Source: a virus (lineage: Duplodnaviria > Heunggongvirae > Uroviricota > Caudoviricetes). Taken from it: a stretch of 45,710 nucleotides of DNA. The DNA is taken from IMG/VR virus record IMGVR_UViG_2526164664_000035; one strand, given 5' to 3'. Under the pieces are notes generated by a model that ran no database searches, was not told where the DNA came from, and saw only the letters and a program-made list of their open reading frames with translations. Of this stretch, positions 31,929-45,710 are shown one piece after another; position 1 is the stretch's first letter; each line of letters starts with the position of its first letter. Position numbers and translations under genes: made by a program.

Positions 31929-34289
31929 TCACGAAGATAATGATCGTATGGCTTCCTTAAGGGCTGGTGAGACACGTTGATTAAGTGCTTCATTAGCCCA
32001 GTCGGATTGCACGGGTATTCTACGCAATATCACTGTGTTTAAAGCAGCAAACAAACGATGCAGTAAATGTATAGAACCGGTCGCGATAGCTGTATCCACC
32101 CACTGGTCCGCATAGAGCCATGGGGCTGAAAATAAATCAGCCATCGCCTGAGTAGCAACTTCAATAGACGCTTTTTCTAGGCAAAGAACATCACCCTGAT
32201 CGCCAAAATTATGCTCAAAGTAAGGCAATCCTTCTATATTCGTGCGAATTAGAGGAAATGGGCAGCGCCCAATGCTCAGTAAAATATAGGCGTCTATACG
32301 CTGATCATCGTCACCCACCTCTGCTGACGGCAGTTTCGCTAGTTGCCCGAGTATCATCCAACTGGTTGATTTAGAAATGACCTTTGGGATTTGATCCTCT
32401 AAATTCACCAGAACACTCTTTGCATCATCCCCGTGTTTAGAAATCCACGCTAATCCATCCTCAATCTTTAGATTGACTTGTTGGTTGTCTGGCATGGCTA
32501 AAGTAAACAATCCGTTTTTTATAGGTTCTTTATATGGCTCAATGCTGAGAAGGCCCTGAATAATTCCAAAGCTGAAATATCTCTCTTTAGCTGCCATACG
32601 GCGTATGGCTTGAGCACCGATCATATCTCCAAGATAAGTGGCGTCTAGCCGTTCGCCAAGCCAAGCCCCGGCGTCTTGAGGGTCTTGTTCTGCCCGTAAA
32701 ACCAGTTCATCACAAACAGCATCCGACAGTTCCAGAAGGTAAGCTGCGGGAACTGTCGGCACCACAACATCTTCCCATCCTGAAAGGCGAAAAATACGAA
32801 CTGCCCCCATATGTTTTAACTCATTCACTACACCACGAGCTTCGTCAGAAAGTGCGTCATACCGCACGACAAATCCATTCGCTTTAGCAAACATTAATTC
32901 TACTGAGTGGGAGTTTGTGTCAGCTAGTGCGCAGCGTGCAAGAACCCGATAATAACGAAGAAGATCATACTGACTCTCATAGCTCTTTTGCGCAGCATCT
33001 ATAAGTTCCATACCGGGTGATGGAGGAAGATAGGCGATAAGATCCGTTTTCTGGTATTGATGATTGCGCACAATGTCATCATAAATAGTGCGAAGAACCC
33101 AAGGCGAGCGGTAGTCATCGGCGTATTCTGCTCCCTGTTGAAAAACTATCCGCTGGTCCGAGAGAATCTGTTGCGCCAGCTTAAATTCATCTAGGGACAT
33201 AGGCGATGTTTTAAATACCTTCGACCGGCTACCAATTGCAGACGGAGTTCGTCCGTTTGGATTTTTCAGTAACGCGTTGGCATGATAGGTCGTCAGAACA
33301 ACCACCAGCCTGTTGCCAAAACGTATACCCGCAAGTTCCTCAAGATCAGTAGCCATTTGGGAGCCTGGTTCAACGTCGTCGATAGCAAGCATAAGCGATG
33401 GACCTTCAGTGCAGTTAGACATTCGTCTTAACCAGTTACGTGCATCATTTGAGGTTAAATTCCATTCAAATTCAGCTGCAAAAAGATTGGCCAGAGCCTG
33501 AAATAGTCCTGGTCCGGAACCTCGTAACATCAGGACAGCCAAAAGATCGCTACTTTCCGTTTTTAGCGAAATTTCACGGAGGCAACTGCTTTTTCCGCTT
33601 TGTGCATCACCCTCAATGATAGTGAAAGCTGTACCCATCACAGCAGATTCAATTACAAGAGACGTGATTTTGCGAGGAAAAAGTAGGTTGTTGGCAAATG
33701 GATGTTCTGAATGCCCAGGCTGATCAGTTATATCAATCAGCAGCCGGGCTGTTTCTTCTCGCACAGCTGGCACCCAAGCATTAGTTTCTCGCCCCATCAA
33801 GGCTTCAATAGCCCAGCGCATGTCAGCCGCCGCCAACTTTGCAGAATTGGCGAGCATCTTGTTTACCGCTGCCGAGGCATCCTGTCCACCCGACCACTGT
33901 TGTCCATTACTTGAGTCATAAACGCGCGTATCTTTACCGTTCGTAACTACAACGAGAGGCGGACGTGGTGTTAACTGGTTAGCGTAGCTTTGAGCCTGTT
34001 CATAATCATCATGGGTCAGTGTCAGGTCTTCACGTTTCAGTTCAATAACCGCAAGTGGTCTCTCCCGATGAAAGATCAAAACATCCGCTCGCCCGTATTT
34101 TTTCCAGTGTGCGGCGCTATCTATTTTGTAAGTTCCATGGCCTAGCCGAACGGTAAAATGGCGCTGTTCGATAAGATCTTCGCGAGGAATGTTAGGAAAT
34201 GCTATGTTTAGTGCTGAAGTAAGCCGGCTTTCTAGCTCGGCTTCAGTTCGAACGAGTGGAGAGCCCGTTTTTGATTGCATACTTTTCAT
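31929..34289 (-). CDS. Unclassified nuclease-NTPase fusion protein (N-terminal PD-(D/E)xK-like domain plus P-loop NTPase); candidate defence protein
   Basis: 786 aa. N-terminal ...GRADVLIFHRERPLAVIELKRED (D...E-x-K, HsdR-N/Mrr-like pattern); Walker A GDAQSGKSS; Walker B-like LMLAIDDVE; long C-terminal region without recognisable motifs. GAGGA RBS 9 nt upstream. Confidence 0.55.
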   Translation of the reverse strand: MKSMQSKTGSPLVRTEAELESRLTSALNIAFPNIPREDLIEQRHFTVRLGHGTYKIDSAAHWKKYGRADVLIFHRERPLAVIELKREDLTLTHDDYEQAQSYANQLTPRPPLVVVTNGKDTRVYDSSNGQQWSGGQDASAAVNKMLANSAKLAAADMRWAIEALMGRETNAWVPAVREETARLLIDITDQPGHSEHPFANNLLFPRKITSLVIESAVMGTAFTIIEGDAQSGKSSCLREISLKTESSDLLAVLMLRGSGPGLFQALANLFAAEFEWNLTSNDARNWLRRMSNCTEGPSLMLAIDDVEPGSQMATDLEELAGIRFGNRLVVVLTTYHANALLKNPNGRTPSAIGSRSKVFKTSPMSLDEFKLAQQILSDQRIVFQQGAEYADDYRSPWVLRTIYDDIVRNHQYQKTDLIAYLPPSPGMELIDAAQKSYESQYDLLRYYRVLARCALADTNSHSVELMFAKANGFVVRYDALSDEARGVVNELKHMGAVRIFRLSGWEDVVVPTVPAAYLLELSDAVCDELVLRAEQDPQDAGAWLGERLDATYLGDMIGAQAIRRMAAKERYFSFGIIQGLLSIEPYKEPIKNGLFTLAMPDNQQVNLKIEDGLAWISKHGDDAKSVLVNLEDQIPKVISKSTSWMILGQLAKLPSAEVGDDDQRIDAYILLSIGRCPFPLIRTNIEGLPYFEHNFGDQGDVLCLEKASIEVATQAMADLFSAPWLYADQWVDTAIATGSIHLLHRLFAALNTVILRRIPVQSDWANEALNQRVSPALKEAIRSLSS

Positions 34290-34932: not shown

Positions 34933-35949
34933 TTACTCGATGCCCAGAACAAATGACATTAACAAATCTAGCTTTATTTTCATGTCTGCAGTTGCCGAAG
35001 CCGCATTAACCTGCGGCAAGGCAAGCCATCTGTTTACGGCATCGGAGTTGAATCTCTGCTGCCTTAGGAACGAAGATACCGACGTTTCCCAGGAAAAGAT
35101 TTCACCCCCACAAAGTTCGACGGGCTGCTGAGAGCAGGCTCGCTGAATAGTCATTCCCAAACCGACGTAGCGGAGAAGCTCACGTCGCACATTCTCATCT
35201 TTTTGCATGACTGGTGCATCCAGTTTCGGTTTCGGTCCAAAGTACACTCCGGTAGTACCTGGTTGTAATGTCGGGTCACTGGAAAAATAAACCGGAACTC
35301 CCATCAATTTAAATGCCGCTGTCAAAATTTCATAACTAATGTCTGATCGACTCCAACGGCCCATGTGGGGTGGTACTTTTGGCAAACCGACCAGATCATC
35401 GCCACGGCTTACAATCGATACCCCCTCAACTGGCACGGATGGTTGCATTCTGAATACAGCGTCAGAATCGATTTCCCAGCCAGCTTCGCTTAACAATCGC
35501 AAAAAATTACCAGCAGCCACGCACGATGATTCACTCCACTCAACACAACCGATGCGCAGCTTGTCCCGCTGACCGAACTGTCCTGTTCGAAATAATTCGA
35601 GGTATCTGTCGCGATTGGAACTATTAACGGCATATGCATCAATCACAGTAGGCGGTACAGGTTTACTTGCAGATTCAGGATTTTGTTGAAGCAAATCTGG
35701 GCTTATGAAAAACACTATAGCGAAGATCGCCACTGCGCCAGATGCTCTTAACCACCCATTAAATTTTACTTCAAGGAAACCAGGCAGAACTGCACCAATA
35801 CATCCGGCAGCCAGAACCAGAACTATTCGGTAAACTATATATTGATAAGGTGTGGGATTGGGGGTTGTGATAGTAGTAATGAGTATGGCAACTATCGCCA
35901 CAACCGCAAAACCATACCTAATGAACTTGTCTGTCCTTACACTGCTCAT
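34933..35949 (-). CDS. Membrane protein of unknown function (three N-terminal TM helices plus ~240-aa soluble domain)
   Basis: 338 aa; hydrophobic segments YGFAVVAIVAILITTITT, IVYRIVLVLAAGCIGAVLPGFL and ASGAVAIFAIVFFISP; co-directional with and upstream of the nuclease-NTPase gene. Confidence 0.5.
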   Translation of the reverse strand: MSSVRTDKFIRYGFAVVAIVAILITTITTPNPTPYQYIVYRIVLVLAAGCIGAVLPGFLEVKFNGWLRASGAVAIFAIVFFISPDLLQQNPESASKPVPPTVIDAYAVNSSNRDRYLELFRTGQFGQRDKLRIGCVEWSESSCVAAGNFLRLLSEAGWEIDSDAVFRMQPSVPVEGVSIVSRGDDLVGLPKVPPHMGRWSRSDISYEILTAAFKLMGVPVYFSSDPTLQPGTTGVYFGPKPKLDAPVMQKDENVRRELLRYVGLGMTIQRACSQQPVELCGGEIFSWETSVSSFLRQQRFNSDAVNRWLALPQVNAASATADMKIKLDLLMSFVLGIE

Positions 35950-40613: not shown

Positions 40614-40946
40614 CTAATAAAAGTTCTTTACATCCATAAAATCCATGATGTATTTATCTAATCCTTTGCGATTGAAAAAACCGAAACTTTCAAAGTCTTT
40701 TATTATTTTCCAATCACTAAATACGTATGCCAAACATACCAAATGAAGAAATTTCACAGGCATAGTATAATTTGCTATTTCGTAATATCTTTCTTTGTGG
40801 TTTTCTGGGCAAGATTCATTTGTGAATTTAAATAGAATATAAAAACTACGAACCGCAGAAAAGAGAGCCATAGAGGATTCATTATCAAAAATAGAAAATT
40901 GTTTGCATAATTCTTCTGCATTTTTTGACTTACATGAGTTTATCAT
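40614..40946 (-). CDS. Hypothetical protein, last gene of an AT-rich three-gene cluster
   Basis: 110-aa ORF 18 bp downstream of the 2-TM protein gene, same strand, strongly AT-rich; no motif recognised. Confidence 0.35.
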   Translation of the reverse strand: MINSCKSKNAEELCKQFSIFDNESSMALFSAVRSFYILFKFTNESCPENHKERYYEIANYTMPVKFLHLVCLAYVFSDWKIIKDFESFGFFNRKGLDKYIMDFMDVKNFY

Positions 40947-40963
40947 GTAACTCTCTAAATAGG

Positions 40964-41347
40964 TTACCGCATCTGAGGCTGAGTAGTTTTTTTATTTCTA
41001 CCAGTTATTCTGAGGGCATCAAACTCTCTTCTAGATACTTCAGCGAGGCTATAAAACGATGATTCAAAAGAGCGCAAGTCATCAATTTCTTTTTGTCTTT
41101 CTGAAACCTCATGCATGTGCAAATTTTGTTTAATAATGCTGATGTTAGCCTCTTTTTGTAAGTTTATTGATTTAATTAACATAATCATTGTAAAAAATGT
41201 CAAAATGGGGTTGGTTACGCCGCCAACGAAATCACCAAATGTTCCCCATTCAGACTTATCAATTGGAAAACCATTTAACGGATCGAAATTGAAGAAATAA
41301 ATCAACCATGTAACTGATATAACTAAAAAGGCAACATACTTTATCAT
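40964..41347 (-). CDS. Small two-TM membrane protein (candidate membrane effector)
   Basis: 127 aa; two hydrophobic helices (YVAFLVISVTWLIYFF; VGGVTNPILTFFTMIMLI) and a charged C-terminal tail; its start overlaps the stop of the upstream gene. Confidence 0.5.
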   Translation of the reverse strand: MIKYVAFLVISVTWLIYFFNFDPLNGFPIDKSEWGTFGDFVGGVTNPILTFFTMIMLIKSINLQKEANISIIKQNLHMHEVSERQKEIDDLRSFESSFYSLAEVSRREFDALRITGRNKKTTQPQMR

Positions 41348-41348
41348 A

Positions 41349-42167
41349 TCAATCCGTTATAACTCGGTGAAGACTATATTTTTTAATGACACCAAGAAAG
41401 TTTCTGATTGATGTCACCTCTAGCCGTACACGAGTAAAATCACCATTATCTGTGTTGACGTCTAAGTTTCTAGATAGCCAGCGTTTTTGATCTGCTGGAA
41501 AATCTCTCCAAAGATATGAAGGTTCAAAACTTACAGACTCAGAATCTTCCTCAAGAATGAGCCTTCCCGTCCCCGTTAGCCGATTAAATCTTGTAATAGA
41601 AGCTTCAATAATGATCCTTTCATCATCGGCACGTTCAACAATTAGATTTTCAAGGGTCGTGTGATCATACCGAGCAAGATTTGTCCTTCTCCGTTTCAGC
41701 TCAACAGTATAATTTTGTTCTTCTATGGGCTTATGAAGCTTCAATAGTGGGCCATAAAGCCTCTTCATTAATGAACTATAATCTGACTCAAGTTCTTTAA
41801 CAATTCTAGCAGCCCTTTTATATGTGAAATTATAAGGTGTTAATAATGGTCTTGTAAGATAATAAGACATAACATCTAGAAATGCCCCCTCTCCGATTGC
41901 GCCATAGTTTCTACGTTGTTCCTCACCTGTGATCTTGAGCATGAAACGTTGTCTAAACGACCCTTCATAACTGGTACGAAAAGATGCGGTTATGCCTTCG
42001 ATTGATGGGATTTTAGTAACTACTTCGCGATTTAGAATCGTATTAGTGAGGACTGTAACTATCTCTGACGTGCCTTCAAGTGCTTTTGACCCATAGTAAA
42101 AATCAAGCTCTGTGAATCTTTCTTCTCCATCACTTACTACCATTTCCATGGGAACATGAATTTCCAT
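41349..42167 (-). CDS. Hypothetical cytoplasmic protein, first gene of the AT-rich cluster
   Basis: 272-aa ORF with no recognised motif; translationally coupled to the downstream 2-TM gene; AT-rich context. Confidence 0.5.
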   Translation of the reverse strand: MEIHVPMEMVVSDGEERFTELDFYYGSKALEGTSEIVTVLTNTILNREVVTKIPSIEGITASFRTSYEGSFRQRFMLKITGEEQRRNYGAIGEGAFLDVMSYYLTRPLLTPYNFTYKRAARIVKELESDYSSLMKRLYGPLLKLHKPIEEQNYTVELKRRRTNLARYDHTTLENLIVERADDERIIIEASITRFNRLTGTGRLILEEDSESVSFEPSYLWRDFPADQKRWLSRNLDVNTDNGDFTRVRLEVTSIRNFLGVIKKYSLHRVITD

Positions 42168-43720: not shown

Positions 43721-44575
43721 TTAATAACTATTGATAATTTTGTGAAGTGCAGGGTTAATTGTCGATGAAATATCAAAATCGGAATTTCTAATCGACCCAG
43801 TGCTCCATCCCTCTTTGAAAAAGAGCAGTATAAGGTTAATATATGAATTGTAAGAATCAATAGTTGATTTTACTTCATTCGAAAGATATTTTAGTCGAGG
43901 GTTTACTTTAACAGCAACTGCTAATTCATCATATTTATTCAAAGTATCGTTCAGTTCTGATGGGAAATCGTCACTTGGAAACCCACAAATAAACTGCTCA
44001 TCAATATAATTATCTTTTAAGTATTTACCTAACTTATCTAGTTTACTTTTAATCCCTACTACACTTTCAATGATTTCCTTATCATAATCGCTCAAAAATA
44101 TCTTTAGCCATGCTGACTTATCGGTTTTCAGCAATGAGTTCTTATCCTCCTCGAACATTATGGTTACTGTTTCATAACCTTTTTCCTCGGCTCTATTTAA
44201 ATATTTTCTTAATTCACTTTTCGGAAGATGCTTCCAGTACAAGCTAGGCTCTTTTGAATTGTTATTAAGACAGGTCCGAATAATAACAACTGGATCATTT
44301 ATGCTTTCCCAATAAGCTATATTTTTCATGGGTACAGAAACATTAGGGTTTTCTTCTAGCGTAGTCGCGGTTGTTTTCACCTGCACACCAATAAACATTC
44401 CAGTTGAATGATTTTGGTCATCATAAACTTCAACTTGAGCATCTAACCCCATATCAATATCAAGAATACGGCAAGGCCAGATGAAATTACTTGATATCCA
44501 GTATGCAAAATAAAACTCTCCGGCATTACCATTTGCCACTACGTCTATATATCTCATACCGATATTTGTATTCAT
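43721..44575 (-). CDS. Hypothetical protein with N-terminal PD-(D/E)xK-like (DUF4365-like) nuclease motifs
   Basis: 284 aa, AT-rich; N-terminal ...GEFYFAYWISSNFIWPCRILDIDMGLDAQVEVY...GMFIGVQVKT shows a D-x-D...E/Q-x-K pattern. Family assignment is from memory only. Confidence 0.45.
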   Translation of the reverse strand: MNTNIGMRYIDVVANGNAGEFYFAYWISSNFIWPCRILDIDMGLDAQVEVYDDQNHSTGMFIGVQVKTTATTLEENPNVSVPMKNIAYWESINDPVVIIRTCLNNNSKEPSLYWKHLPKSELRKYLNRAEEKGYETVTIMFEEDKNSLLKTDKSAWLKIFLSDYDKEIIESVVGIKSKLDKLGKYLKDNYIDEQFICGFPSDDFPSELNDTLNKYDELAVAVKVNPRLKYLSNEVKSTIDSYNSYINLILLFFKEGWSTGSIRNSDFDISSTINPALHKIINSY

Positions 44576-44711: not shown

Positions 44712-45710
44712 CTAACTCTGTTTTTCATTTAATTTATCAAATATTTTACCCAAAGTAAGCAAAAGTCGCTCTTGAAATTGATTGGTAATCTCTGGGAGTC
44801 GATTATTTATTTTGGTATCACCACCATAAAATAAATTTCTACTTTTATACGATTCAAAACGTCCTTCTGATGTTTGGTCAGGGAAAAGCAAATATTTTTC
44901 AATACATGCGTTGTTCCGGATAACTCTGTATGCTTTTGGCATATCGTCTAAAAGACCATCATGTATGATATGGTTTCGTACACTTTCTATTTCATTAATA
45001 AATGGGCATTGCTCAAACAAAGATCCTTTATAATTATTTAAGCTCACTTTCTTTTTATCACCATATTGAGAGTTCTTGGATGTGAGTTTAACATAAGAAG
45101 AGAACTGTGTTTTTAAATTTTCAATTTCTATAGCTAGTTTTGTTATGTAGTCGAGCAAACTGTACATGCGGATATAAATAAATCCAAGTAATGCAAAGAG
45201 CTTAGTCACGACTGGAGATGTAACATATCTTATACCGTCCTCCTCTTCAATGTTAGGGAAAAACAAGGGTTCAAAATTCAACGTGTAATAAAACTCCCCT
45301 TGTAGTTGCAACACTTCCTTGCTGCATTCCTGTATGCTACTTACAATTTTACAGCAATCAAAAAGGTAAAGGCCTTTATTTACGTCAGTATGCCCTTTGA
45401 ATTTATCAATAAATAAAACAAATGTTTCTTTTGAAACTACGGATTCAGAGTTCAAACCTGCTGTTGATAAAAACTCAGGGGCCATATAAAGGAACTTGTG
45501 GTAGTTTTCTAATCCATCAAAAATGCTATTAGCTAGAGCATCATGAATATTAACGCATAATGCATCGATCGCATAAAGATGATTCCCTCTGTTCGGGTAC
45601 CATCCACCTTGAGGATCATGTATAAAGTAAATGTCCTCACCTCCAATTGAGTCAGTTGGTATCCCTCTTAAAGTCAAATACATGCTTTCATATGAAGGTA
45701 TCATATCCAT
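44712..45710 (-). CDS. Hypothetical protein, possible HEPN/Abi-like; 5' end at the window edge
   Basis: 332-aa ORF, AT-rich; contains VRNHIIHDG (an Rx4H HEPN-like motif). The first codon sits on the last bases of the window, so the N-terminus may be incomplete. Confidence 0.4.
   Translation of the reverse strand: MDMIPSYESMYLTLRGIPTDSIGGEDIYFIHDPQGGWYPNRGNHLYAIDALCVNIHDALANSIFDGLENYHKFLYMAPEFLSTAGLNSESVVSKETFVLFIDKFKGHTDVNKGLYLFDCCKIVSSIQECSKEVLQLQGEFYYTLNFEPLFFPNIEEEDGIRYVTSPVVTKLFALLGFIYIRMYSLLDYITKLAIEIENLKTQFSSYVKLTSKNSQYGDKKKVSLNNYKGSLFEQCPFINEIESVRNHIIHDGLLDDMPKAYRVIRNNACIEKYLLFPDQTSEGRFESYKSRNLFYGGDTKINNRLPEITNQFQERLLLTLGKIFDKLNEKQS

What the first reader, a model, noticed from the sequence alone, without database searches (positions are those of the whole stretch)
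44712..45710. Window-edge ORF with an Rx4H HEPN-like motif, possibly Abi-like
Seen in sequence: a 332-aa AT-rich ORF contains VRNHIIHDG in its C-terminal third, which fits the Rx4-6H HEPN pattern found in Abi-type abortive-infection RNases. It sits next to the nuclease-like gene. The evidence is a single short motif, so this is weak. The start codon is on the last bases of the window, so the gene may continue beyond it.
Basis: inference. Interest (0 to 1): 0.45.

Follow-up and report, generated by a model that had tools for sequence, protein, structure and literature searches.

The report
Stand-alone HEPN nuclease-like defence-island gene
The ORF at the window edge is a complete, conserved gene for an uncharacterised protein with the fold and invariant catalytic motif of HEPN RNases; it travels alone in defence islands and prophages, so it is probably a single-gene anti-phage toxin, which makes it a plausible but unsurprising addition to a well-known kind.

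Summary
Window 44712-45710 (- strand) is a 332-aa, 34% GC ORF carrying VRNHIIHDG. It is complete: an in-frame TAA lies 21 nt upstream of the ATG, just beyond the window. It equals E. coli WP_000367246.1 ('hypothetical protein'), found in 84 of 5426 complete E. coli genomes, mostly O26/O103/O111 EHEC.

No neighbour is conserved. The adjacent DUF4365 gene is absent or deleted in close relatives. Neighbourhoods are defence islands (Hachiman, AbiJ, Qat, PARIS-like), ICEs, satellites and prophage structural modules.

Best reading: a stand-alone, dimerising HEPN RNase that acts in abortive-infection-type defence. This is inferred and untested. I rate it a new member of a known kind, of moderate interest.

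The parts
44712..45710 (-). Complete CDS, 332 aa plus stop. It equals WP_000367246.1 'hypothetical protein'.
   Evidence: ORF list. 100% identical annotated CDS in NZ_AP018808.1. In-frame stop 21 nt upstream of the ATG. dN/dS 0.14-0.16.
45390..45710 (-). N-terminal region, residues 1-107: three short strands plus four helices, specific to this family, with invariant G35, W37, C52, G85 and E89. Inferred to be a sensor or regulatory module.
44718..45389 (-). HEPN-like helical domain, residues 108-331. Core helices: H1 108-146, H2 166-197, H3 236-251, H4 301-331. Inserts at 198-235 and 252-300.
45138..45152 (-). D187-Y-I-T-K191: an acidic-x3-basic motif in helix 2, the counterpart of the HEPN Ex3[KR] motif.
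   Evidence: D187 is invariant and K191 is >=90% conserved in 67 homologues. The expected position follows PMC3710099.
44961..44978 (-). R245-N-H-I-I-H250: the Rx4H (RNxxxH) predicted catalytic motif at the C-terminal end of helix 3.
   Evidence: R245, N246 and H250 are invariant in A1. R245 and H250 are invariant in A2. Coordinates.
44811..44957 (-). Insert between the motif and helix 4, residues 252-300, with a beta-hairpin at 260-275 and conserved D278, R291 and F294. N302 lies just after it, at the start of helix 4. Possibly substrate binding or part of the active site.
   Evidence: AF2 secondary structure. R291 and F294 are invariant; D278 and N302 are >=90% conserved.
43721..44575 (-). 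Context only: the downstream DUF4365 (PD-(D/E)xK-like) gene, 136 nt away on the same strand with the same 34% GC. It is not an obligatory partner.
   Evidence: Pfam and PADLOC hits. Absent from 30 other genome loci. Reduced to a 30-codon remnant in E. coli LR9-2 and in L002. Listed on its own as a 'predicted novel defense gene' in the DefensePredictor supplement.

Best explanation
The ORF encodes a stand-alone member of the HEPN nuclease superfamily. It has a family-specific N-terminal module (about residues 1-107) followed by a four-helix HEPN domain. That domain carries an invariant RNxxxH motif and an invariant Dx3K motif.

Proposed mechanism, by analogy with characterised HEPN enzymes:
1. 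The protein homodimerises so that two Rx4H motifs form one composite, metal-independent RNase site.
2. The site is kept inactive until a phage-derived cue is sensed. Sensing is most likely through the N-terminal module or through the conserved insert between the motif and helix 4.
3. Cleavage of cellular and/or phage RNA then stops translation and aborts the infection.

The gene moves horizontally as a single-gene cargo of defence islands, ICEs, satellites and prophages.

Shown here: a complete gene under purifying selection; the HEPN-type fold; motif invariance and placement; the absence of any conserved partner gene; and the defence or mobile-element context. Inferred: RNase activity, dimerisation, the phage trigger and the abortive-infection outcome.
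For: - The gene is complete and under selection.
- The family is large: 346 cluster representatives (50% identity) at E<=1e-3, mostly 310-360 aa and matched over their full length.
- In 67 sequences down to about 20% identity the only invariant columns are D187, R245, H250, R291 and F294. N246 is invariant among closer relatives.
- The motif lies at the end of predicted helix 3 and Dx3K lies in helix 2, exactly as described for HEPN domains in PMC3710099.
- The only recurrent Pfam hit is HEPN_Cthe2314: E 0.0047 for this protein, 5 of 36 and 9 of 67 relatives, best E 4.6e-6. UniRef names a 50%-identical relative 'Cthe-2314-like HEPN domain-containing protein'.
- No neighbour is conserved across 31 genome loci.
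- Neighbours are rich in defence and mobile genes:
  - Hachiman HamA/HamB, AbiJ-related and HigA in E. coli LR9-2.
  - QatABCD, a UvrD helicase and NYN in Pseudomonas.
  - CcdAB and a TerB/BrxC-D-like/helicase cluster in a Pectobacterium ICE.
  - PARIS AriAB, AAA_15/21 ATPases, PDC-M01A, AbiEii and integrases.
  - A satellite-like element in Paraburkholderia.
  - Prophage structural modules, plus phrog_31026 at E 2.5e-43.
- In Aeromonas it is a solitary insertion between sucD and a housekeeping gene. This shows that it can exist without a partner.
Against: - No experiment bears on it.
- The Pfam HEPN hit is below the curated threshold (17.4 vs 27.1 bits), and most relatives do not hit it at all.
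- Foldseek against the PDB finds nothing. Profile searches of PDB sequences find nothing.
- No PADLOC model matches.
- The protein was not found in the truncated copies of the DefensePredictor tables that are held. Its neighbour was found there.
- Defence-island context is guilt by association. The Aeromonas locus has no defence context at all.
- How a lone toxin is kept silent is unexplained.
Confidence: 0.55

Rival explanations
1. It is the toxin of an addiction or toxin-antitoxin module. Its role would be to stabilise the mobile element that carries it, not to defend against phage. The antitoxin would be unrecognised: a small adjacent ORF, an antisense RNA, or the protein's own N-terminal domain.
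For: HEPN domains are common TA toxins (PMC3710099). The gene always sits on mobile DNA. CcdAB lies directly upstream in Pectobacterium. About 170 nt of conserved upstream region carries a conserved hairpin and a short uORF.
Against: No conserved neighbouring ORF exists in 31 loci. There is no MNT nucleotidyltransferase partner; the only NTase-type neighbour is a single AbiEii. The reading frame of the 29-codon uORF is not preserved in the 92%-identical E. coli variant. The Aeromonas copy is a lone insertion in a housekeeping region.
Confidence: 0.15
2. It is one half of a two-gene system with the downstream DUF4365 PD-(D/E)xK-like nuclease: an RNase and a DNase acting together.
For: Both genes are on the same strand, 136 nt apart, both at 34% GC, with no terminator-like site between them. 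The pair is kept in 82 of 84 E. coli genomes. DefensePredictor lists the DUF4365 protein as a predicted defence gene.
Against: The 82 E. coli copies are >=99% identical and so represent one clonal island. The 92% variant in E. coli LR9-2 and in L002 keeps an intact HEPN gene but only a 30-codon remnant of DUF4365. The 79%-identical Pectobacterium orthologue and 29 further genome loci have no DUF4365 gene.
Confidence: 0.08
3. It is a HEPN-fold protein with a non-defence role in mobile elements, such as RNA processing or regulation of element genes. Alternatively it is a nucleotide- or ligand-binding protein and not an RNase.
For: Some HEPN domains are non-catalytic binders (PMC3710099). Some copies sit inside prophage structural modules or in housekeeping regions. 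There is no match to any catalogued defence protein.
Against: Non-catalytic HEPN domains typically lose the Rx4-6H motif, whereas here R, N, H and the upstream D are invariant. The patchy, horizontally transferred distribution (84 of 5426 E. coli genomes) fits accessory conflict genes.
Confidence: 0.12
4. In at least some lineages it is an accessory effector of a multi-gene system (QatABCD) and does not work autonomously.
For: In Plastoroseomonas (L016) and Bosea (L017) the gene starts about 7 nt after the qatD stop on the same strand. qatABCD is also within 2-4 kb in an Acetobacteraceae MAG (L013) and in Pseudomonas alliivorans (L033).
Against: Only 4 of about 36 distinct loci show this. In Pseudomonas the orientation is convergent, with a helicase gene between. 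The E. coli window has no qat genes. Defence systems cluster anyway.
Confidence: 0.1

Closest known systems
Cthe_2314-like HEPN family (Pfam PF18730; defined by Anantharaman et al. 2013, PMC3710099)
   Same: It is the only Pfam family hit. The hit aligns residues 177-251, from helix 2 to the RNxxxH motif, with profile positions 52-124 of 174. The family is bacterial, has a conserved Rx4-6H, has no detected partner genes or fusions, and has no known function. This is the same picture as found here.
   Different: The score is below the curated cut-off (17.4 vs 27.1 bits). Only 5 of 36 and 9 of 67 relatives give even weak hits, and 9 of the 10 relatives scanned individually, including the one UniRef calls Cthe-2314-like, gave no Pfam hit at E<=0.01; the tenth hit only methylase domains. 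This family has an extra conserved N-terminal module of about 105 aa and a conserved insert of about 50 aa after the motif.
Minimal HEPN domain proteins of HEPN/MNT toxin-antitoxin pairs (e.g. PDB 4nqf; AF0298, PDB 2hsb)
   Different: These proteins are about 130-150 aa and are encoded next to a minimal nucleotidyltransferase antitoxin. This protein is 332 aa with extra modules, shows about 7% sequence identity to them, and has no MNT neighbour.
[quoted passage not shown]
   Different: There is no sequence-profile match to Abi_2 or to any PADLOC Abi model at E<=1. The N-terminal module is unrelated to known folds. No phenotype is known.
Recently validated single-protein HEPN defence systems in E. 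coli (e.g. DS-11, CBS+HEPN; DefensePredictor, PMC13092281)
   Same: The architecture has the same logic: an N-terminal regulatory domain plus a C-terminal HEPN nuclease in one protein from the E. coli accessory genome. In DS-11, defence was lost when the HEPN catalytic residues were mutated.
   Different: The N-terminal domain is different, with no CBS or any other Pfam domain. This protein's accession and N-terminal sequence were not found in the held supplement text.

Membership tests
HEPN superfamily | Four-helix up-down bundle core (two alpha-hairpins), often with an insert between helices 2 and 3 | tested here: met
HEPN superfamily | Conserved Rx4-6H motif at the end of helix 3, with a polar residue (N/D/H) after the R | tested here: met
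   R245-N246-x3-H250 lies at the C-terminal end of helix 236-251. R, N and H are invariant in 36 sequences. R and H are invariant in 67 sequences down to about 20% identity. The criterion comes from PMC3710099.
HEPN superfamily | Second conserved acidic residue in helix 2, typically Ex3[KR] | tested here: met
   D187x3K191 lies in helix 166-197. D187 is invariant and K191 is >=90% conserved. The acidic residue is Asp here, not the more usual Glu.
HEPN superfamily | Metal-independent endoribonuclease activity from a composite dimeric active site | not testable with these tools
   No multimer prediction, no access to model coordinates and no biochemistry were available.
Pfam HEPN_Cthe2314 (PF18730) | Score at or above the curated gathering threshold (27.1 bits) | tested here: not met
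   17.4 bits, E 0.0047, residues 177-251. Among relatives, 5 of 36 hit at E<0.1 (best 0.0014) and 9 of 67 at E<0.01 (best 4.6e-6). P0081, which UniRef names Cthe-2314-like, gives no hit at E<=0.01. This is the closest family, but the protein is not filed as a member.
Pfam Abi_2 (AbiD/AbiF) and other catalogued Abi proteins | Profile match to Abi_2 or to PADLOC Abi models | tested here: not met
   No Abi_2 hit at E<=1 in Pfam. No PADLOC hit of any kind at E<=1. No NCBIfam hit of relevance.
Abortive-infection / anti-phage defence gene (functional class) | Protects a culture from phage, typically by growth arrest or death of the infected cell | not testable with these tools
   Only contextual support is available: defence islands, ICEs, satellites and prophage morons.
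HEPN-MNT type II/VII toxin-antitoxin pair | Adjacent minimal nucleotidyltransferase (MNT) gene | tested here: not met
   No NTase gene flanks the ORF in the window. No neighbour is conserved in 31 loci. Among 109 neighbour ORFs the only NTase-type hit shown is one AbiEii.
Two-gene system with DUF4365 nuclease | Conserved co-occurrence of both genes across divergent homologues | tested here: not met
   DUF4365 is present only in the clonal E. coli island. It is a 30-codon remnant in L002 and L039 and absent elsewhere.
Qat (QatABCD) defence system accessory gene | Regular operonic association with qatABCD | tested here: inconclusive
   The gene is operonic in L016 and L017, and qatABCD is nearby in L013 and L033. 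It is absent from the window and from most loci.

The most novel reading that the evidence does not exclude
This family, about 320-340 aa with a fold-orphan N-terminal module plus a HEPN domain carrying a conserved post-motif insert, is a previously unrecognised stand-alone anti-phage system. Its N-terminal module would be a new kind of phage sensor. The same protein would be recruited modularly as an extra RNase effector: as a fifth gene of some qatABCD operons, and fused to a DNA methylase in P0269.
Probability: 0.3. Interest if true: 0.55.

Novelty: new member of a known kind. Interest (0 to 1): 0.35.

Why it matters
If confirmed, this would give a function to a widespread 'hypothetical protein' family: 346 clusters at 50% identity across Proteobacteria, Planctomycetes and other phyla, and in prophages. 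The family is fixed in the O26/O103/O111 EHEC lineage. It would add one more single-gene HEPN system to the defence catalogue, with an N-terminal domain that has no structural relatives and could reveal a new sensing mode.

It would also matter practically for phage therapy and biocontrol of EHEC, because the island stacks several candidate defence genes: the HEPN gene, the DUF4365 gene and an HsdR-N-domain protein.

The concept itself, a HEPN RNase as an abortive-infection effector, is well established. A specialist would not be surprised.

Tried and rejected
1. The motif as evidence on its own. Rejected, because Rx4-6H arises in 51% of shuffles.
2. The gene continues past the window edge. 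Rejected, because there is an in-frame stop 21 nt upstream.
3. Sequence searches against the PDB with the single sequence and with two family profiles. Nothing significant turned up; HAUS1 and IpaD at E about 0.1 are chance matches.
4. Foldseek against the PDB with the full model found nothing at E<1. The afdb50 library was unavailable.
5. PADLOC and NCBIfam gave no relevant hit for the ORF.
7. Conserved partner gene. All-against-all clustering of 1093 ORFs from 31 loci found none. DUF4365 pairing was rejected.
8. A 29-codon uORF upstream as an antitoxin. Its frame is not preserved in the 92% variant.
9. Promoter and terminator scans were not above shuffle expectation.
10. A tblastn against INPHARED phage genomes gave no hit, although PHROGs and IMG/VR do contain relatives.
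11. I looked for a Cthe_2314 alignment in the supplement of PMC3710099, to run a profile-profile test. It is not held.
12. Literature searches for the accession and for Cthe_2314 found no functional study.

Full report
**1. Observation**

Window 44712..45710 on the - strand holds a 332-aa ORF that starts at an ATG formed by the last three bases of the window. VRNHIIHDG occupies residues 244-252. R245 is encoded at 44976-44978 and H250 at 44961-44963. The ORF has 34% GC, against 46% for the window.

The stretch is 100% identical to the chromosome of E. coli E2865 and to many O26/O103/O111 EHEC strains. There it is annotated as the same 999-nt CDS, WP_000367246.1 'hypothetical protein'. Reading that record beyond the window edge shows an in-frame TAA 21 nt upstream of the ATG, with an AAGAGGA site about 13 nt upstream.

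dN/dS is 0.16 against a 92%-identical E. coli variant and 0.14 against the 79%-identical (amino-acid level) Pectobacterium orthologue. This is a real protein under purifying selection.

**2. Is the motif more than chance?**

On its own it is not. Shuffling the protein gives an Rx4-6H in 51% of trials, an Rx4H in 21% and an R[NDH]x3H in 3.3%. What makes it significant is conservation and placement.

- The family is large. There are 238 hits in the 90%-clustered database and 346 representatives of 50%-identity clusters at E<=1e-3. Most are 310-360 aa and aligned end to end.
- In 36 relatives (48-79% identity), R245, N246 and H250 are invariant.
- In 67 relatives reaching down to about 20% identity (mean column identity 16%), only five columns are invariant: D187, R245, H250, R291 and F294. 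G85, S184, K191, E195, D278 and N302 are conserved at >=90%.

**3. Fold**

AlphaFold2 with the family alignment gives a confident model (pLDDT 90.4, pTM 0.90). Its elements are:

- a small N-terminal strand-and-helix region, residues 1-107;
- long helices at 108-146 and 166-197;
- a loop insert with a short helix, 198-235;
- helix 236-251;
- an insert containing a beta-hairpin (260-275);
- a final long helix, 301-331.

Anantharaman et al. 2013 (PMC3710099, read) describe the HEPN domain as follows. It is a four-helix up-down bundle, often with an insert between helices 2 and 3. [quoted passage not shown] A polar residue (N/D/H) follows the R. A second conserved acidic residue sits in helix 2, usually as Ex3[KR].

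The model matches each point. RNxxxH is at the C-terminal end of helix 236-251, N follows the R, and the invariant D187x3K191 lies in helix 166-197.

The caveats are real.
- Foldseek finds nothing.
- No PDB sequence is detectably related.

The structural hit alone would be modest. Together with the motif geometry it is convincing.

**4. Family assignment**

The only Pfam family that recurs is HEPN_Cthe2314 (PF18730).
- This protein scores 17.4 bits (E 0.0047) on residues 177-251, against a cut-off of 27.1 bits.
- Among close relatives, 5 of 36 hit at E<0.1.
- Among distant relatives, 9 of 67 hit at E<0.01, with a best E of 4.6e-6.
- Of ten relatives scanned individually, nine gave no Pfam hit at E<=0.01. 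These include P0081, which UniRef names 'Cthe-2314-like HEPN domain-containing protein'. The tenth, P0269, hit only methylase domains.

I therefore treat Cthe_2314-like HEPN as the closest described family and not as a demonstrated membership. That family was itself listed in 2013 with 'Rx4-6H: yes; architecture/operons: none detected', and I found no functional study of it.

**5. Genomic context**

In the window the gene lies in a low-GC patch of a composite island. The order is:
- a P22-like prophage;
- a disrupted integrase;
- IS elements;
- an HsdR-N-domain protein;
- several hypothetical proteins;
- the DUF4365 gene;
- this gene;
- yeeP/Ag43/CP4-44-like genes.

The DUF4365 gene (PD-(D/E)xK-like) is 136 nt downstream on the same strand, with the same GC and no terminator-like site between. 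The pairing is not conserved, however.
- The 82 E. coli copies that carry both genes are >=99% identical, so they are one clonal island.
- The 92% variant in E. coli LR9-2, and in a metagenomic bin, keeps an intact HEPN gene with only a 30-codon stump of DUF4365.
- The Pectobacterium orthologue and 29 other genome loci have no DUF4365 gene at all.

All-against-all clustering of ORFs from 31 genome loci found no conserved neighbour of any kind.

What the neighbourhoods share is their type.
- Hachiman (HamA/HamB), an AbiJ-related gene and HigA at the thrW island of LR9-2.
- QatABCD, a UvrD-type helicase, NYN and a metallophosphatase in Pseudomonas alliivorans.
- CcdAB and a TerB/BrxC-D-like/helicase cluster inside a conjugative element in Pectobacterium.
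- A satellite-like element (Phage_CRI, AlpA) with HNH genes in Paraburkholderia.
- PARIS AriAB, AAA_15/AAA_21 ATPases, PDC-M01A, AbiEii, DUF3800 and integrases among 109 immediate neighbours.
- Phage tail-tube, capsid, cement, head-completion and tape-measure genes in IMG/VR contigs, where the gene looks like a moron. The family also matches phrog_31026 at E 2.5e-43.

One Aeromonas copy is a lone insertion between sucD and a housekeeping gene. This shows that the gene can be kept with no partner.

**6. Mechanism**

The best-supported reading is a stand-alone HEPN RNase of the abortive-infection or defence type.

Shown:
- the gene is real and complete;
- the fold is HEPN-type and the catalytic signature is invariant;
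- there is no obligatory partner;
- the gene is cargo of defence islands and mobile elements.

From established knowledge of HEPN enzymes (RNase L/Ire1 KEN, PrrC/RloC, RnlA/LsoA, Cas13, Csm6; summarised in PMC3710099): these are metal-independent endoribonucleases in which the H and R of the motif are essential. They generally act as dimers with a composite site (this is also stated in PMC13092281).

Inferred:
- this protein dimerises;
- it is held inactive by its N-terminal module and/or the conserved post-motif insert (D278, R291, F294, with N302 at the start of helix 4);
- a phage cue activates it;
- it then cleaves RNA to arrest the infected cell.

I put about 0.85 on 'HEPN-superfamily domain with a catalytic-type motif' and about 0.55 on the full defence mechanism.

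**7. Rivals**

- An addiction or TA toxin with an unrecognised antitoxin (0.15).
- A two-gene system with DUF4365 (0.08; the pairing test failed).
- A non-defence HEPN role in mobile elements (0.12; argued against by the invariant catalytic residues).
- An accessory effector of Qat-type systems in some lineages (0.10).

**8. Literature**

The accession does not occur in the searchable library. DefensePredictor (PMC13092281) validated four new E. coli systems with HEPN domains, among them DS-11, which pairs a CBS domain with HEPN. That is the same design logic.

Its supplementary tables, held in truncated form, list the DUF4365 neighbour WP_001095351.1 as a 'predicted novel defense gene' (mean log-odds 12.5). 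They contain neither WP_000367246 nor the N-terminal sequence of this protein. As far as the held text shows, this protein has not been tested.

**9. Verdict**

The HEPN interpretation is supported well beyond the single motif. The 'Abi-like' label remains a contextual inference, and membership of Abi_2 fails.

The finding is a new, uncharacterised member of a well-known kind: a HEPN nuclease carried in defence islands. The points of modest novelty are the fold-orphan N-terminal module, the conserved post-motif insert, and the occasional operonic coupling to qatABCD. Interest 0.35.

Noticed in passing
L016 5941-7020 and L017 5950-7002 (also L013 and L033): In Plastoroseomonas hellenica and Bosea sp. 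OK403 the HEPN-family gene starts about 7 nt after the qatD stop, as a fifth gene of a qatABCD operon. qatABCD also lies 2.2 kb upstream in an Acetobacteraceae MAG, and 3.6 kb away (convergent) in Pseudomonas alliivorans. The HEPN proteins of the two groups are only about 50% identical, so the juxtaposition arose at least twice.
   Followed up: partly
window 43721-44575 (-): The DUF4365 neighbour (WP_001095351.1, 284 aa; N-terminal PD-(D/E)xK-like domain plus an unassigned C-terminal half) is listed in the DefensePredictor supplement as a 'predicted novel defense gene' with mean log-odds 12.5. It also matches a PADLOC Argonaute-associated REase model at E 5e-12, although no Argonaute gene is nearby.
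   Followed up: partly
window 40614-41347 (-): Two ORFs (110 aa and 127 aa) correspond to a single 244-aa CDS (WP_000599124.1) in strain E2865, so this gene appears frameshifted in the window's strain. The window-to-E2865 coordinate offset also changes by 1 nt between 42167 and 43721.
   Followed up: no
window 41349-42167 (-): A 272-aa hypothetical protein has weak DUF7946/DUF7947 hits and a strong match to phrog_13337 (E 5e-62, unknown function). It is followed by a small hydrophobic ORF. This may be another unannotated accessory or defence pair in the same low-GC patch.
   Followed up: no
L001 17136-17159 (- strand; about 125-150 nt upstream of the ORF start, just outside the window): About 170 nt upstream of the ATG is conserved between two E. 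coli variants and Pectobacterium. It includes an inverted repeat, GTCCGCTC-N8-GAGCGGAC (perfect 8-bp stem in the LR9-2 copy; E2865 has mismatches). The Pectobacterium copy carries a compensatory pair (GTCCGTTC...GAACGGAC). No T-run follows, so it is not an obvious terminator and may be an operator or a 5'-UTR structure. A 29-codon uORF lies between it and the start, but its frame is not preserved.
   Followed up: partly
P0269 (506 aa; found): This is a natural fusion of an N6-adenine DNA methylase domain (N6_Mtase/Eco57I, residues 21-237) to the HEPN half of this family (residues 260-476). The methylase replaces the usual N-terminal module. It links the family to restriction-modification systems.
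   Followed up: no
L039 7024-8382 and L002 1627-2982: In the 92% E. coli variant, most of the DUF4365 gene has been deleted. A 452-aa AT-rich hypothetical protein (WP_023338099.1) lies further downstream, within an island at tRNA-Thr (thrW) that also carries Hachiman, an AbiJ-related gene and HigA.
   Followed up: no
window 31929-34289 (-) and 34933-35949 (-): A 786-aa protein is annotated in E2865 as 'type I restriction enzyme HsdR N-terminal domain-containing protein', and a 338-aa hypothetical protein sits beside it. Both lie in the same island between IS elements, with no HsdM or HsdS nearby. This is another candidate orphan defence gene.
   Followed up: no
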